From positions 1 through 33,775 of IMG/VR virus record IMGVR_UViG_2671180456_000007: 33,775 bases of DNA. One strand, 5' to 3'. Every line of letters begins with the position of its first letter. The first letter of the stretch is position 1. A model generated the notes under the pieces. It was not told the DNA's origin. It saw only the letters and a program-made list of their open reading frames with translations, and searched no databases. This DNA is from a virus. Taxonomy: Duplodnaviria; Heunggongvirae; Uroviricota; Caudoviricetes. Both the position numbers and the translations under genes were made by a program. Positions 29,885-33,405 of this stretch are shown piece by piece.

Positions 29885-30236
29885 ATAAGATGACTTTGTT
29901 TTCGTTGAGACGCGACTGTTTGAACTTAAATACAAGTGCAAACGAAGAAGTCTATCTGGCAGTAGCCTAATAAGCCAAACACCAGCGAGGTCAGTTTCCA
30001 GCCTCGTTACCGAAATGGGACACACTGAGCGAGTGTGATTGCAGAACGCAGGAGGGAACATGAATGTTCCCTCCGATGAAGTAACAGAATGGGCCGGTTG
30101 GTATATTTTCAACTCCATATGACTCCCGGATTCTTAGCCACTGACCGCCCATCCTGTTACGTCATTTTGTTCAATTATGTCGTTTATACTGGGTTAAAAA
30201 GCGGCGACGTAGCCCGGCTGGTATGGTTAGCCAGTA

Positions 30237-30358
30237 CACAACGTTGAGGCCATTACATTTTTATCAATTCTAAGGTTCTATTCACAGAGATACCGGCGAG
30301 CGTTGATATGTAACATGTTGGGCAAACATTCAATCGGAGTAGTGGCCTCAACGTTGTG
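30237..30358 (+). repeat. Long hairpin element A (about 20-bp terminal stem CACAACGTTGAGGCCATTAC / GTAGTGGCCTCAACGTTGTG, about 80-nt interior)
   Basis: The two arms are exact reverse complements apart from one position; termini match those of elements B, C and D. Confidence 0.5.
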
Positions 30359-30624
30359 AAGACAGGATTGTTGTGTAGGTTTAACCACTGTTGCCATTGG
30401 TGCCTGTTTTCACAACAAATGATTCCATACATCACATTGTATAAATTACAAAGTAGGTGCTGTCCTCAGAAACATCATCTACTTAAAGATTTTGCCTTCT
30501 ACTATTGAGCGAAGTCGAAAGCGTCTGGCACTAACGAAAAGTGCAAGTAGCGGTGCGTTTCCTGGCAGAAACTAAACCGTCGCGATTGGCACTGTTGAGT
30601 AATAAATACTGGCAGTGCTGAATT

Positions 30625-30699
30625 GATGGTGTAGCTCAGCGGTAGAGCAGTTGGCTGTTAACCAACTGGTCGGTGGTTCGAATCCACCCACCATCGCCA
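30625..30699 (+). tRNA. tRNA-Asn (anticodon GTT)
   Basis: Manual fold: acceptor GATGGTG/CACCATC, D-stem GCTC/GAGC, anticodon stem GTTGG/CCAAC with loop CTGTTAA, T-arm GGTGG-TTCGAAT-CCACC, discriminator G plus encoded CCA. Confidence 0.8.
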
Positions 30700-30704
30700 A
30701 TTTA

Positions 30705-30791
30705 GGGGAGTTAGTCCGTAGGGGCAGCGGGGTAGACTGTAAATCTACTGTCATTGCGACTCGGGTGGTTCGACTCCATCACTCCCCACCA
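30705..30791 (+). tRNA. tRNA-Tyr (anticodon GTA), class II with long variable arm
   Basis: Acceptor GGGGAGT/ACTCCCC, anticodon stem GTAGA/TCTAC with loop CTGTAAA, variable stem-loop, T-arm GGTGG-TTCGACT-CCATC, encoded CCA; the D-arm region is non-canonical (4-nt linker). Confidence 0.7.
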
Positions 30792-30795
30792 AATT

Positions 30796-30871
30796 GCCGG
30801 TTTAGCTCAGTTGGTAGAGCGTCTGCCTTGTAAGCAGGATGTCAGCGGTTCGATCCCGTTAACCGGCACCA
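30796..30871 (+). tRNA. tRNA-Thr (anticodon TGT)
   Basis: Acceptor GCCGGTT/AACCGGC, D-arm GCTC-AGTTGGTA-GAGC, anticodon stem TCTGC/GCAGG with loop CTTGTAA, T-arm AGCGG-TTCGATC-CCGTT, encoded CCA. Confidence 0.8.
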
Positions 30872-30872
30872 A

Positions 30873-30962
30873 CACAACAGGTAAGAGCATTGGGCGAATC
30901 GGCGATACTGACCCACAAGCCCGTAAATCGATAGAGTCAGACCAGTGCTCTTACCGTTGTGA
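30873..30962 (+). repeat. Long hairpin element B (terminal stem CACAACAGGTAAGAGCATTGG / CCAGTGCTCTTACCGTTGTG), directly abutting the tRNA-Thr 3' end
   Basis: About 20-bp inverted repeat with compensatory changes relative to elements A, C and D; begins 2 nt after the tRNA-Thr CCA. Confidence 0.5.
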
Positions 30963-31013
30963 GGAAGTGCAGCTCTTTGAAGCAACCAGAAGATAAGCAT
31001 CTGGCTTCACAAC

Positions 31014-31092
31014 ACAACGATAAGATCATTACGGTTAATCGTCGTTCATGTGCACAATGACTGGTCGAAAGGTAGTGATCTTACCGTTGTGA
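31014..31092 (+). repeat. Long hairpin element C (terminal stem CACAACGATAAGATCATTAC / GTAGTGATCTTACCGTTGTG)
   Basis: Inverted repeat with the same CACAACG ... CGTTGTG termini as elements A and B. Confidence 0.5.
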
Positions 31093-31191
31093 TGAATGCA
31101 CAGGCTGATGTGCCGCAACTACAGTAGTGCGCGCTTTGCGGGGGTTGCTACAACCCTGTGTCGGAGTTCAGCACCGACCATCACAATAGCT

Positions 31192-31278
31192 GGAGAGTAG
31201 GGAGCATGGTGCTCAAGCGGTCTTGAAAACCGTCCCATTGCGCAAGCGATGATGGTTCGATTCCATTACTCTCCGCCA
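31192..31278 (+). tRNA. tRNA-Ser (anticodon TGA), class II with long variable arm
   Basis: Acceptor GGAGAGT/ACTCTCC, D-stem GAGC/GCTC, anticodon stem GCGGT/ACCGT with loop CTTGAAA, variable arm ATTGC-GCAA-GCGAT, T-arm GATGG-TTCGATT-CCATT, discriminator G plus CCA. Confidence 0.8.
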
Positions 31279-31280
31279 GA

Positions 31281-31358
31281 CACAGCGTTGAGCGGTTTGG
31301 CCTTTTAATCACCCAGATTAAGACTCCGCTAACATAAACCAGACCGCTCAACGCTGTG
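31281..31358 (+). repeat. Long hairpin element D (terminal stem CACAGCGTTGAGCGGTTTGG / CCAGACCGCTCAACGCTGTG), directly abutting the tRNA-Ser 3' end
   Basis: 20-bp inverted repeat with one mismatch; termini CACAGCG ... CGCTGTG are a covarying variant of the A-C termini. Confidence 0.5.
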
Positions 31359-31432
31359 ATAGACAATTACGGCAGACGTTCTTAACCATAGCTTGCTAAC
31401 ATCCTAGCAACACTTTTTTCAGCGCAAAATTC

Positions 31433-31456
31433 AAAGGGGCTTCGGCCCCTTTTTTG
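31433..31456 (+). terminator. Rho-independent terminator closing the tRNA cluster (stem AAAGGGGC/GCCCCTTT, loop TTCG, T6 tract)
   Basis: AAAGGGGCTTCGGCCCCTTTTTTG; a second weaker hairpin with a T tract lies at 31393-31419 (TTGCTA-ACATCC-TAGCAA-CAC-TTTTTT). Confidence 0.75.
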
Positions 31457-32301: not shown

Positions 32302-33405
32302 ATGAAAAATAGCTTTGACAGAGCACGCGCTGCGGAGAACACCTCAAAAGAGGCGATAGAGTATCTCGAAAGAGCATCTCAAATGCAGGCCGTTATGATC
32401 TCCCAGGTCAGCAATGACATGAGATTCTCGGACGCATTCATGTTATTCACTCGCTTATCTCTGCTCATAACCAGACGTCGGCCAGAGATCGCTGTTCATT
32501 GTATTTTGATACATGTTTTTCCGCACATTGCCGATGTAAAAGTAAGTGATATTAATAGGTTCATGGTGAACCAACTGGTCAACCCACTAATACTGGATGG
32601 CAAAATTGTTATGGGCCGCCGCGTTTTCTCTCTGATGAAGCAGTTCCTTAGCTGGTGCGCCTTCCAGGGGATGATAGACGTGTCACCGTTAAACGATATG
32701 TCACTTAACAAAGTTGCCGGTGGCGCAAAGCCCACGCCCCGCGAGCGGAAGCTGACTGACGCAGAGGTATGGGTGTTCTGGAATATATGGGACTACTTCA
32801 ATGTGTGTGCTGGTACAAAATGGGCGGCCAGGCTATGTCTTGTATCCGCAAGACGACCTGACGAAGTACTGCGGGCTAAAAAAAGTGAGTTCAATCTTAA
32901 GCGTGGGGTTTGGAATCAAGGCAAGAGGAACAAATCTGCCCGTGAGCATTCTCTGCCTTTAAGCTCATTAATGCGCACTTGTATTGAAGAGTTGTTCGAA
33001 TATGGTAAAGACAGCCAGTGGCTCGTGCCTTCGAATAAAAAAATCGGGAAAGACCTTCCTATGTCTAAAGTGGCAATAGCCCAGGCATTACGTCGTATTC
33101 TGGAACGACCAGAACTGATGGAGCTTGAGCCATTTACACCCCGAGATTTGCGCCGTACTGCGCGTAGTTACTTCCCAGCATTAGGCATAAGCCAGGAGGT
33201 ATCACGTAAAATCATGAACCACAGTCTTGAGGGGATAGATCGGGTCTACGACCGGCACGATTATATGGACGAGATGCGAGACGCCTTAGAAAGTTTCTCG
33301 ACGTACATCGCATCAATCGTAGAGCAACCGGATTTAGACGAAATTGACCACAAATTTAAGGGAGATCGTCTATCAACAGAGCTTATTCGTGTAAATTTTT
33401 CATAG
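32302..33405 (+). CDS. int: Tyrosine recombinase / phage integrase (P4-like family)
   Basis: 367 aa; conserved catalytic regions ...LVSARRPDEVL... (box I Arg), ...FTPRDLRRTARSYF... (box II) and ...MNHSLEGIDRVYDRHDY (His ... Tyr nucleophile region). Arg replaces the usual box II His; the N-terminal arm-binding domain is atypical. Confidence 0.75.
   Translation: MKNSFDRARAAENTSKEAIEYLERASQMQAVMISQVSNDMRFSDAFMLFTRLSLLITRRRPEIAVHCILIHVFPHIADVKVSDINRFMVNQLVNPLILDGKIVMGRRVFSLMKQFLSWCAFQGMIDVSPLNDMSLNKVAGGAKPTPRERKLTDAEVWVFWNIWDYFNVCAGTKWAARLCLVSARRPDEVLRAKKSEFNLKRGVWNQGKRNKSAREHSLPLSSLMRTCIEELFEYGKDSQWLVPSNKKIGKDLPMSKVAIAQALRRILERPELMELEPFTPRDLRRTARSYFPALGISQEVSRKIMNHSLEGIDRVYDRHDYMDEMRDALESFSTYIASIVEQPDLDEIDHKFKGDRLSTELIRVNFS

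What the first reader, a model, noticed from the sequence alone, without database searches (positions are those of the whole stretch)
30237..31358. Family of four long hairpin elements with covarying stems interleaved with the phage tRNA genes
Four elements (A 30237-30358, B 30873-30962, C 31014-31092, D 31281-31358) each consist of a roughly 20-bp terminal stem enclosing a 40-80-nt interior. All four stems begin CACA(A/G)C and end with the complementary G(T/C)TGTG, but the interior stem positions differ between elements while staying complementary within each one (for example B GGTAAGAGCA pairs with TGCTCTTACC; D GTTGAGCGG pairs with CCGCTCAAC). Compensatory variation of this kind argues for selection on structure rather than sequence. 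B and D start 2 nt after the 3' CCA of tRNA-Thr and tRNA-Ser. Possible roles are RNase III-type processing sites for a polycistronic tRNA precursor, small stable RNAs like those in T-even tRNA clusters, or mobile/recombination elements that shuffle tRNA cassettes. I do not recognise them as a described element family.
Basis: seen in the sequence. Interest (0 to 1): 0.72.

Follow-up and report, generated by a model that had tools for sequence, protein, structure and literature searches.

The report
Stem-closed RNA modules among phage tRNAs
The four hairpins are real members of a large, unannotated family of folded RNA modules that sit next to tRNA genes and in other untranslated stretches of many enterobacterial phages (including phage P1): a roughly 20-base-pair stem kept paired by selection encloses interchangeable small RNA motifs whose function is still unknown.

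Summary
A, B, C and D (30237-30358, 30873-30961, 31013-31091, 31281-31358) each have a 19-20-bp closing stem with CACA(A/G)C...G(U/C)UGUG ends. No other such hairpin occurs in the 33.7-kb window.

The window is an SSU5-like phage-plasmid. The hairpins lie in a 1.6-kb ORF-free tRNA/ncRNA stretch ending in terminator hairpins.

I collected 116 distinct relatives: SSU5-like plasmids, P1 (under the annotated plp/upl ORFs), 9NA-like, lambda-like and rV5-like phages, and prophages in 340 of 5426 E. coli genomes.

- **Stems:** they covary within orthologues. Length stays at 19-20 bp while interiors range from 28 to 79 nt.
- **Strand:** non-Watson-Crick positions are G.U on the tRNA-sense strand 192 times against 21 A.C, which points to RNA.
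- **Cargo:** identical arms enclose at least 13 unrelated interiors. Interiors B and C recur elsewhere inside unrelated stems.
- **Order:** module order is shuffled among close relatives, with junctions at CACAA repeats.

Rfam 15 and my literature searches name no such family.

Best reading: co-transcribed stem-closed small-RNA modules. The stems scaffold or insulate the cargo and probably serve as RNase III-type processing sites. The mechanism is inferred, not shown.

Separately, a tmRNA-like tag frame lies upstream.

The parts
30237..30358 (+). Element A, a type I stem (CACAACGUUGAGGCCAUUAC / GUAGUGGCCUCAACGUUGUG) around a 76-82-nt interior that holds two inner hairpins.
   Evidence: Fold z -6.7 and inverted repeat I2. 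Orthologues in SSU5, pJN2-26 and IMG/VR loci show 4 of 19 pairs with double-sided changes and 98.1% of cells paired.
30873..30961 (+). Element B, a type II stem (CACAAC-A-GGUAAGAGCAUUGG / CCAGUGCUCUUACC-GUUGUG) with a bulged A at 30879. It starts one nucleotide after the CCA of tRNA-Thr.
   Evidence: The same arms occur with at least 13 unrelated interiors in IMG/VR. The B interior recurs in pJN2-26 (L004 2228-2277) and in Pectobacterium phage DU_PP_V (L215), each time inside an unrelated 7-bp stem and with a covarying inner helix.
31013..31091 (+). Element C, a type II-like stem (CACAACGAUAAGAUCAUUAC / GUAGUGAUCUUACCGUUGUG, one A.C mismatch) around a conserved 39-nt interior.
   Evidence: The interior is conserved in Phapecoctavirus phiWec188 and Nonanavirus PJ16 with different stems: 9 of 29 pairs carry double-sided changes, and 95.8% of cells are paired against 23-57% when partners are slid. 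Covariance model score 104.8 bits.
31281..31358 (+). Element D, a type I stem (CACAGCGUUGAGCGGUUUGG / CCAGACCGCUCAACGCUGUG), starting two nucleotides after tRNA-Ser. The interior holds a variable hairpin plus the invariant single-stranded motif GACUCCGC.
   Evidence: Fold z -9.7. Among orthologues the stem changes from GCGUUGAGCGG to GCGCUGAACGG with matching changes in the 3' arm.
30956..31013 (+). Module S0 between B and C. Its closing helix GUUGUGAGG/CUUCACAAC shares GUUGUG with B's 3' arm and CACAAC with C's 5' arm, and it contains two small hairpins.
   Evidence: (I13). It recurs in P1, PJ16, Sasha and the epsilon34 PL leader, with closing helices GUUGUGGUG/CACCACAAC or GAUGCGAUG/CAUCGCAUC.
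31086..31186 (+). Module S1 between C and tRNA-Ser. Its closing helix is GUUGUGAUG/CAUCACAA, around 4-5 small hairpins.
   Evidence: It is 95% identical in P1 and present in HK629. Relatives carry GUUGUGGUU/AACCACAAC or GUUGUGGUGG/CCACCACAAC instead. A sister module type in relatives scores 43.8 bits against Rfam STnc100, just under the cut-off of 47.
30353..30416 (+). S-like hairpin after A (GUUGUGAAGACAGG / CCUGUUUUCACAAC), which shares GUUGUG with A's 3' arm.
   Evidence: I11. It is conserved in SSU5 and CMS-2020a.
30625..30871 (+). tRNA-Asn(GUU) 30625-30699, tRNA-Tyr(GUA) 30705-30791 and tRNA-Thr(UGU) 30796-30871.
   Evidence: ARAGORN and Rfam.
31192..31278 (+). tRNA-Ser(UGA).
   Evidence: ARAGORN.
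30076..30165 (+). Further long hairpin H0 with different termini (AUGAAGUAACAG... / ...CUGUUACGUCAU), 19-28-bp arms in relatives.
   Evidence: (I6).
29938..29973 (+). tmRNA-like tag reading frame GCA AAC GAA GAA GUC UAU CUG GCA GUA GCC UAA UAA (ANEEVYLAVA**), at the start of the same untranslated stretch.
   Evidence: Read from the sequence. ARAGORN calls it only at a lowered threshold, and the tag varies synonymously across loci.
31391..31455 (+). Two terminator-like hairpins with U runs that close the untranslated stretch: GCUUGCUA..UAGCAA plus U6 at 31414-31419, and GGGGCUUCGGCCCC 31436-31449 plus U6 at 31450-31455.
   Evidence: Read directly from the sequence. The consensus scanner did not list them.

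Best explanation
A, B, C and D are RNA-level modules of a long untranslated tRNA/small-RNA transcription unit of the phage-plasmid. This unit runs from about 29.87 kb to 31.46 kb, is on the same strand as the tRNAs, and ends at terminator hairpins.

Each module is a small folded RNA (the 'cargo') whose 5' and 3' ends are brought together by a closing helix of about 20 bp, with the conserved joint CACA(A/G)C...G(U/C)UGUG. Selection keeps the helix paired and keeps its length, while the cargo can be any of many separately conserved motifs.

I infer three roles for the helix:
(i) It makes each cargo an autonomous folding domain that does not interfere with the neighbouring tRNAs.
(ii) It is the site where a double-strand-specific endonuclease, most likely host RNase III, cuts the precursor. 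That would release the cargo as a stable small RNA and leave a short, trimmable 3' trailer on the upstream tRNA. There is no single-stranded room for RNase E between the CCA and the stem.
(iii) It shields the cargo from exonucleases.

The same short joints, repeated in direct and inverted order every 60-120 bp, also make the DNA prone to deletion, insertion, exchange and occasional inversion of modules. This would explain the very fast reshuffling among close relatives.

Shown: existence, family, covariation, strand bias, modularity and distribution.
Inferred: co-transcription, RNase III cleavage, release of stable RNAs, and any trans function of the cargos.
For: Structure under selection:
- Within-element pairing is 98.8%, against 77.1% for swapped arms, over 116 distinct elements with 30 arm variants.
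- Orthologues show double-sided changes.
- For the C-type, the interior is conserved while 8 of the 19 stem pairs carry double-sided changes across three phage lineages.

RNA on the tRNA-sense strand:
- Non-Watson-Crick stem positions are G.U on the sense strand 192 times, A.C 21 times and other 8 times.
- The bulged A is in the 5' arm 55 times and in the 3' arm twice.
- In every context where direction can be read, the elements point with transcription. This holds for the tRNA clusters, the lambda-like late region, the PL leader and the capsid operon.

Measured helix. The stem is 19-20 bp in 80 of 116 elements, while interiors range from 28 to 79 nt. About two helical turns is the size of classical RNase III substrates, which is established knowledge (see also PMC6212723).

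Carrier and cargo:
- Identical type II arms enclose at least 13 unrelated interiors.
- The B and C interiors occur elsewhere in unrelated stems.

Position. The stem starts 1-2 nt after a tRNA CCA, in 34 IMG/VR copies too. In pJN2-26 it even overlaps the CA of the CCA.

Non-coding, highly structured surroundings. Fold z is -7.1 for 29890-30624 and -4.7 for 30872-31191. No conserved ORF is present.

Precedent nearby. [quoted passage not shown] A sister module type lies close to the prophage sRNA STnc100.
Against: - No transcript, end-mapping or nuclease data were available, so cleavage and stable products are unproven.
- The promoter and terminator scanner found nothing in the region. Co-transcription rests on the P1 Pban annotation and on reading the sequence.
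- The G.U count is inflated by shared ancestry, because positions 8 and 17 account for most of it. My stem walker also tolerates G.U more readily than A.C. An earlier unbiased but smaller count gave only 46 against 22.
- Bulges and wobbles in type II stems are the kind of feature known to protect antisense RNAs from RNase III, so type II may be built to resist the enzyme rather than to be cut by it.
- About half of the type II copies I collected follow a terminator, not a tRNA, so tRNA 3' maturation cannot be the general role.
- High sequence conservation of the type II arms across unrelated phages is not needed for a purely structural helix.
Confidence: 0.5

Rival explanations
1. DNA-level recombination joints. 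The CACAAC/GTTGTG repeats and the long inverted arms exist because they let phages exchange, delete, duplicate or flip tRNA and ncRNA cassettes, either by homologous or microhomology recombination or by a dedicated recombinase. On this view the RNA hairpins are incidental.
For: - More than 40 different module orders occur among about 70 SSU5-like loci whose neighbouring ligase is 84-100% identical.
- Cyrano has Thr-ACACAATT-Ser, which is exactly a deletion between two direct CACAA repeats. CMS-2020a lacks B and S0, with the junction again in the repeat.
- In L055 the interior of element A is precisely inverted between unchanged arms (111 of 112 identity to the reverse complement).
- Identical arms enclose unrelated cargos.
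Against: - The strand-specific G.U bias and the one-sided bulge are not expected for double-stranded DNA sites.
- The elements are always oriented with transcription and always lie in untranslated transcribed regions.
- Cargo interiors are themselves conserved, with covarying inner helices.
- No recombinase co-occurs. The nearby integrase is a generic Phage_integrase hit, and nothing comparable flanks the elements in P1, PJ16, HK629 or phiWec188.
- No target-site duplications are visible.
- This rival is compatible with the best explanation as a secondary property of the repeats.
Confidence: 0.2
2. Generic structural filler. Any untranslated spacer in a long ncRNA operon must be tightly folded to avoid Rho loading and nuclease entry. 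On this view the hairpins are selected only for being folded and have no processing or trans-acting role.
For: - The whole 1.6-kb stretch is far more structured than shuffles (z -7.1 and -4.7).
- Cargo is interchangeable.
- Modules are gained and lost freely among close relatives.
Against: - Specific cargos are conserved across distant phage families in different stems (B in a T5-like Pectobacterium phage, C in rV5-like and 9NA-like phages).
- Stem length is held at 19-20 bp.
- The termini and the type II arm sequence are conserved well beyond what mere folding needs.
Confidence: 0.15
3. Single-stranded-DNA hairpins, either integron attC-like recombination sites or priming (ssi) signals, that fold in one DNA strand during replication or transfer.
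For: - The architecture resembles attC: imperfect inverted repeats of 60-120 nt with conserved ends ...AAC / GTT..., variable middles, strand-specific mismatches and one per cassette.
- G.T pairs are also tolerated in ssDNA.
Against: - The ends do not fit the attC cores. ACACAAC compared with RYYYAAC and GTTGTGA compared with GTTRRRY each carry 1-2 mismatches, and D has GCTGTG, which lacks the GTT cut site.
- There is no IntI-type integrase and no cassette ORFs.
- The elements occur in phages of five unrelated types that share no recombinase or primosome factor.
- The interiors carry conserved RNA-like motifs.
Confidence: 0.04
4. They are parts of protein-coding genes on the opposite strand, as annotated in P1 (plp 'putative lipoprotein' and upl).
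For: The P1 RefSeq record annotates plp and upl across the homologous hairpins. Several other records call 'hypothetical proteins' there.
Against: - The window has no minus-strand ORF longer than 52-61 aa in this region.
- Window and P1 alignments differ by indels that are not multiples of three, and by whole-module replacement.
- The pattern of change is paired-arm covariation, not codon-like.
Confidence: 0.02

Closest known systems
RNase III processing helices that bracket RNAs in polycistronic precursors (16S/23S stems in rrn operons; phage T7 early and late mRNA R sites; DicF maturation in the Qin dicB operon)
   Same: A long helix of about two turns is formed by the sequences that flank a functional RNA, inside a multi-gene transcript. 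P1's homologous operon even carries a dicF-like segment.
   Different: No cleavage has been shown here. The helices enclose only 28-79 nt. The type II stems carry a conserved bulge and wobbles. The termini are sequence-conserved (CACAAC/GUUGUG), which RNase III does not require.
Small stable RNAs embedded in phage tRNA clusters (T4 species 1 and 2 RNAs, rnaC/rnaD)
   Same: Non-tRNA structured RNAs of unknown function are interleaved with phage tRNA genes and presumably cut out of the same precursor.
   Different: This comparison rests on my own knowledge and I ran no sequence comparison against the T4 RNAs. No Rfam family, including the tRNA model, hits the window hairpins. The present family has a 20-bp closing stem, and the window copies have no tRNA-like fold. 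Only some relatives carry a T-arm mimic in the cargo.
Prophage-encoded sRNAs STnc100 (RF02076) and PasD of lambdoid and Stx phages
   Same: They occupy the same genomic niches: the late-region leader near holin/stx, and untranslated phage regions. One of the spacer module types found beside the hairpins in relatives aligns to the STnc100 model over its core (UGGUGAAU...CACCGGGAGGCACCCGGCACCA) (bioRxiv 10.64898/2026.05.13.724894; PMC12370729).
   Different: The score is 43.8 bits, below the Rfam cut-off of 47. The match concerns the S modules of relatives, not the four hairpins. The window itself has no STnc100 hit.
Integron attC sites
   Same: One imperfect inverted repeat per cassette, conserved AAC...GTT ends, a variable but self-complementary middle, a similar length range, and rapid cassette reshuffling.
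   Different: The core consensus is not met. There is no IntI and no ORF cassettes. The hairpins sit in a transcribed ncRNA unit and carry conserved RNA motifs.
tRNA-spacer-derived sRNAs (for example the 3'ETS of the E. coli glyW-cysT-leuZ operon)
   Same: Functional small RNAs are made from the transcribed spacers and trailers of tRNA operons by processing.
   Different: Those are short single-stranded or Hfq-binding fragments released by RNase E. They are not stem-closed modules, and they are not a repeated, shuffled family.

Membership tests
Any Rfam 15 family | Covariance-model score at or above the family's gathering threshold | tested here: not met
   Only tRNAs pass in the window. With permissive E-values, the hairpins attract only chance miRNA-type hits of 16-18 bits. 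The same holds in P1, PJ16, Sasha, phiWec188, HK629 and epsilon34.
E. coli RNase III substrate | Uninterrupted or nearly uninterrupted dsRNA of about two helical turns (about 20-22 bp) | tested here: met
   Stems are 19-23 bp in the window and 19-20 bp in 80 of 116 relatives.
E. coli RNase III substrate | Staggered double cleavage leaving 2-nt 3' overhangs, dependent on rnc; favourable proximal- and distal-box base pairs | not testable with these tools
   No transcript-end data are available. The positional score matrix of PMC6212723 is in a figure or supplement that I could not read.
Integron attC | R'' RYYYAAC and R' GTTRRRY core sites at the two ends | tested here: not met
   ACACAAC and GTTGTGA each miss the consensus by 1-2 positions. 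D has ACACAGC / GCTGTGA and so lacks the AAC/GTT.
Integron attC | Adjacent IntI integrase and promoterless ORF cassettes | tested here: not met
   The nearest recombinase (32302-33405) matches only the generic Phage_integrase family at 40.6 bits. Nothing comparable flanks the elements in the P1, PJ16, phiWec188 or HK629 regions fetched. The cassettes are tRNAs and ncRNAs.
MITE / insertion sequence | Terminal inverted repeats plus target-site duplication, with copies dispersed in the genome | tested here: not met
   No duplication flanks any of the four elements. All copies in the 33.7-kb window lie within 1.1 kb. The elements are always sense to transcription.
STnc100 (RF02076) | Score of at least 47 bits | tested here: not met
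   There is no hit in the window. Spacer modules of relatives L037 and L020 reach 43.8 and 43.4 bits.
Y RNA-like YrlA (RF02553) | Long closing stem plus a tRNA-like T-arm/D-arm domain; score of at least 69 bits | tested here: not met
   The only weak hits (15-26 bits) span adjacent genuine tRNAs, not the hairpins.
tRNA / tRNA-like | Cloverleaf detected by ARAGORN or the Rfam tRNA model | tested here: not met
   Only the four tRNAs are found. T-arm mimics (UAGAG-UUCGACU-CUCUA and AGGG-UUCGAAU-CCCU) occur in the cargo of some relatives but not in the window copies.

The most novel reading that the evidence does not exclude
The roughly 20-bp CACAAC...GUUGUG helix is a common 'cassette holder' used by many unrelated enterobacterial phages to express, protect and swap a library of small functional RNAs, such as decoys, aptamers or regulators aimed at host or rival-phage factors. 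The same joints would work as RNA helix ends and as DNA recombination points. In effect this would be an RNA-cargo analogue of integron cassettes, evolving under arms-race turnover.
Probability: 0.2. Interest if true: 0.85.

Novelty: new variant of a known kind. Interest (0 to 1): 0.66.

Why it matters
- **Annotation of a model phage.** P1 has been studied for seventy years, and its tRNA region is annotated with two ORFs (plp and upl). These now look like misread structured RNAs.
- **Scale.** The same unannotated modules are present in SSU5-type phage-plasmids of clinical Enterobacteriaceae, in lambda-like prophages of about 6% of complete E. coli genomes, and in virulent phages considered for therapy.
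- **Possible biology.** If the stems are processing scaffolds for interchangeable small RNAs, these phages carry a fast-evolving RNA arsenal that nobody has assayed.
- **Practical use.** A natural, portable helix of about 20 bp that stabilises arbitrary RNA inserts next to tRNAs would be useful for RNA expression.
- **Testability.** The question can be answered directly with P1 genetics and rnc/rne/rnpA host strains.

Tried and rejected
- **Rfam.** I ran gathering-threshold and permissive searches on the window, P1, four SSU5-like loci and five other phages. Nothing hits the hairpins. The YrlA and tRNA-Sec hits are genuine tRNAs.
- **Literature.** I searched by exact arm sequences and by topic and found no description. 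Anonymous catalogues of candidate viral structured RNAs (PMC10690425) could contain them, but I could not check.
- **attC/integron idea.** Rejected on the core sequence and the lack of IntI.
- **Coding on the minus strand (plp/upl).** Rejected.
- **boxA/nut reading of S0.** I considered this because S0 lies in the epsilon34 PL leader and contains GCUCUUU. I dropped it because that segment varies as a small covarying hairpin (GCU/AGC, GUU/AAC, GUC/GAC) rather than as a conserved boxA.
- **tRNA-Lys anticodon-loop mimic in D (CUUUUAAUCA).** Dropped, because that segment is paired in the predicted fold and is not conserved in orthologues.
- **G.U against A.C as a decisive strand test.** A first unbiased count was only 46 to 22. 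The oriented count is 192 to 21, but it is inflated by shared ancestry and by my stem walker.
- **Promoter and terminator scanner.** It returned nothing, even though two terminator hairpins are evident by eye.
- **Genome-contig scan.** It gave only three hits, because that collection holds one genome per species.
- **RNase III positional preferences.** I could not extract them from PMC6212723.
- **ARAGORN tmRNA calls.** They needed thresholds lowered to 70-80%, and the proposed tRNA-like domains are not credible.
Full report
**1. What is in the window**

Megablast places the window in the SSU5 group of phage-plasmids. The best matches are Escherichia phage CMS-2020a and Cyrano at 96-98% identity.

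The stretch from the end of a 96-aa ORF (29845) to the next ORF (31499) has no conserved ORF. It contains tRNA-Asn, tRNA-Tyr, tRNA-Thr and tRNA-Ser, all on the + strand. It ends with two hairpin-plus-U-run terminators that can be read directly in the sequence (31391-31419 and 31436-31455).

**2. The observation**

C is shifted by one base, to 31013-31091.

Each folds into a 19-23-bp closing helix. The energies lie 4 to 9.7 standard deviations below those of dinucleotide shuffles. The termini and quoted pairings are as described.

An ungapped scan for hairpins of at least 18 bp finds three in the 33.7-kb window, and B with its bulged A makes four. All four lie within 30235-31360. Shuffled windows give 0.49 on average. 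A covariance model built from C-type elements hits only C, A and B in the whole window.

**3. The family**

Homologous elements are present in the following:
- SSU5, pJN2-26, Cyrano and CMS-2020a.
- 80 IMG/VR SSU5-like loci fetched through the neighbouring DNA ligase.
- Phage P1, in the Pban tRNA operon. At least four copies lie under and beside the annotated minus-strand ORFs plp and upl.
- The 9NA-like phages PJ16 and Sasha, which have no tRNA nearby.
- The rV5-like Phapecoctavirus phiWec188, again directly after tRNA-Thr.
- Lambda-like HK629, between an HNH gene and the holin gene.
- Chromosomal prophages of 340 of 5426 complete E. coli genomes, with no annotation.

Two stem types recur. 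Type I is CACA(A/G)C-GUUGAG..., as in A and D. Type II is CACAAC-(A)-GGUAAG... with a bulged A, as in B and C.

**4. Selection on pairing**

I compared 116 distinct elements, which carry 30 different 5'-arm variants. Positions 7-18 pair in 98.8% of cases within an element, against 77.1% when arms are swapped between elements.

Orthologue alignments show independent double-sided changes:
- A: GGCC changes to GAUC, GACC/GGUC or AGCC/GGCU. Four of 19 pairs carry such changes, and 0 of 500 shuffles reach the observed pairing.
- D: U-A changes to C-G and G-C changes to A-U.
- C-type: five sequences from three phage lineages share the interior but differ at 9 of 29 pairs on both sides. Pairing is 95.8%, against 23-57% when partners are slid.

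**5. RNA or DNA**

Non-Watson-Crick stem positions are G.U on the tRNA-sense strand 192 times, A.C 21 times and other 8 times. The bulged A is in the 5' arm 55 times and in the 3' arm twice.

These counts are inflated by shared ancestry and by my stem walker. An earlier unbiased count gave 46 against 22.

The wobble at stem position 17 is nonetheless shared by A, B, C and D, and it alternates only with C-G or U-A. Wherever transcription direction is known, the elements point with it. This favours a sense-strand RNA helix. The surrounding RNA is also unusually structured (z -7.1 and -4.7).

**6. Carrier and cargo**

Stem length is 19-20 bp in 80 of 116 elements, whereas interiors span 28-79 nt.

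Identical type II arms enclose at least 13 unrelated interiors. Conversely, particular interiors are conserved in quite different stems:
- The B interior recurs upstream of tRNA-Asn in pJN2-26 and in the T5-like Pectobacterium phage DU_PP_V. In each case it sits inside an unrelated 7-bp stem, and its inner helix covaries (CUGAC/GUCAG, CAGCC/GGCUG, CUGUC/GACAG).
- The C interior recurs in phiWec188 and PJ16.

Some relatives carry a perfect T-arm mimic as cargo.

**7. The 'spacers' are modules too**

The sequence between B and C (S0, 30956-31013) is closed by a helix that starts with the GUUGUG of the preceding hairpin and ends with the CACAAC of the next one. So is the sequence between C and tRNA-Ser (S1, 31086-31186).

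These closing helices covary between relatives. Examples are GUGAUG/CAUCAC, GUGGUU/AACCAC, GUGGUGG/CCACCAC and GAUGCGAUG/CAUCGCAUC.

A sister S type in relatives scores 43.8 bits against Rfam STnc100, whose cut-off is 47. STnc100 is a prophage sRNA found downstream of stx2 and near holin (PMC12370729; bioRxiv 10.64898/2026.05.13.724894).

**8. Shuffling**

About 70 close relatives show more than 40 different orders of tRNAs, H modules and S modules.
- Cyrano's Thr-ACACAATT-Ser junction is a deletion between direct CACAA repeats.
- The CMS-2020a junctions also fall in the repeat.
- In L055 the interior of A is exactly inverted between intact arms.

No recombinase travels with the elements.

**9. 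Interpretation**

The best-supported reading is a set of co-transcribed, stem-closed small-RNA modules. The helix scaffolds and insulates the cargo. It probably also serves as an RNase III-type processing site that trims the upstream tRNA trailer, since the stem begins 1-2 nt after the CCA and in pJN2-26 overlaps it.

This mechanism is inferred. No transcript data were available, and the bulge and wobbles of type II stems could equally be protection against RNase III.

DNA-level cassette exchange at the joints is real, but it is best seen as a second property of the repeats. The attC, MITE, coding and known-Rfam-family readings fail their defining tests; see the membership table.

**10. Novelty**

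Nothing in Rfam 15 and nothing in the literature I could search names these elements. They resemble known kinds, namely RNase III-bracketed RNAs and stable RNAs in phage tRNA clusters. The conserved joint, the fixed helix length, the swappable cargo and the breadth across phage types make them a new variant rather than a member of a described family.

Noticed in passing
window 29938-29973 (context about 29890-30230); also P1 L006 about 1540-1572, SSU5 L005 and PJ16 L087 about 1222-1257: A tmRNA-like tag reading frame with no start codon: GCA AAC GAA GAA GUC UAU CUG GCA GUA GCC UAA UAA = ANEEVYLAVA** (the E. coli ssrA tag is ANDENYALAA). Across the loci the tag varies mostly synonymously; for example ANDNQYLAVA is encoded by six DNA versions. 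The variable residues are N-terminal and the YLAVA end is fixed, as expected for a translated degradation tag. ARAGORN calls a 'permuted tmRNA' only at 70-80% thresholds, and the tRNA-like domains it proposes are not credible. Rfam tmRNA models score below threshold (14-28 bits). No acceptor/T-arm partner was found.
   Followed up: partly
L055 6542-6653 (IMGVR_UViG_2823367306_000002) compared with L049 6542-6653: The 76-nt interior of the element A orthologue is exactly inverted (111 of 112 identity to the reverse complement), while both arms and both flanks are unchanged. This is a DNA inversion between the hairpin arms, or an assembly artefact.
   Followed up: partly
P1 RefSeq NC_005856 69472-70041 (L006 2075-2644): The annotated minus-strand genes plp ('putative lipoprotein') and upl overlie at least three of these covarying hairpins plus an S module. 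The ORFs are not conserved in the window or in other relatives, so they are probably not genes.
   Followed up: partly
window 30076-30165 and 30051-30074: Two further strong hairpins lie in the leader. One is a long hairpin (19-28-bp arms in relatives, 19 bp here) with termini AUGAAGUAACAG.../...CUGUUACGUCAU, conserved across SSU5-like loci. The other is a perfect 10-bp hairpin, GGAGGGAACA-UGAA-UGUUCCCUCC. Neither belongs to the CACAAC family.
   Followed up: partly
L037 7654-7826 and L020 6892-7060 (SSU5-like relatives); P1 L006 2683-2802: A spacer module between a type II hairpin and tRNA-Ser aligns to the core of Rfam STnc100 at 43-44 bits (cut-off 47) in the SSU5-like relatives and at 33.4 bits in P1. 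This suggests that STnc100/PasD-type prophage sRNAs and these spacer modules share ancestry.
   Followed up: partly
epsilon34 L091 1500-1558 (PL leader just upstream of the N-like gene): An S0-type module sits between PL and the antiterminator gene, where a nutL site would be expected. It has an unrelated 9-bp closing helix, GAUGCGAUG/CAUCGCAUC. I did not test whether its CCAGA-AGAUAAGCA-UCUGG hairpin is the boxB of this N type.
   Followed up: no
tRNA-Thr in the window (30796-30871) compared with L008, L013, L014 and others: Two alleles of the phage tRNA-Thr(UGU) circulate among near-identical phage-plasmids. Their anticodon stems differ (GUCUGCC/GGCAGGA against AGUCGCU/AGCGAAU) and so do their T arms, but both keep pairing. 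This may be relevant to tRNA-targeting defences.
   Followed up: no
window 31391-31455: The consensus terminator scanner reported no site, although GGGGCUUCGGCCCC followed by UUUUUU is an obvious intrinsic terminator. Negative results from that scan should not be relied on here.
   Followed up: yes
element D interior, window about 31326-31333, and all D orthologues: The single-stranded motif GACUCCGC is invariant in 14 of 14 distinct D orthologues, while the adjacent inner hairpin is replaced several times. The motif contains an anti-Shine-Dalgarno-like CUCC, so it could be a base-pairing seed.
   Followed up: no
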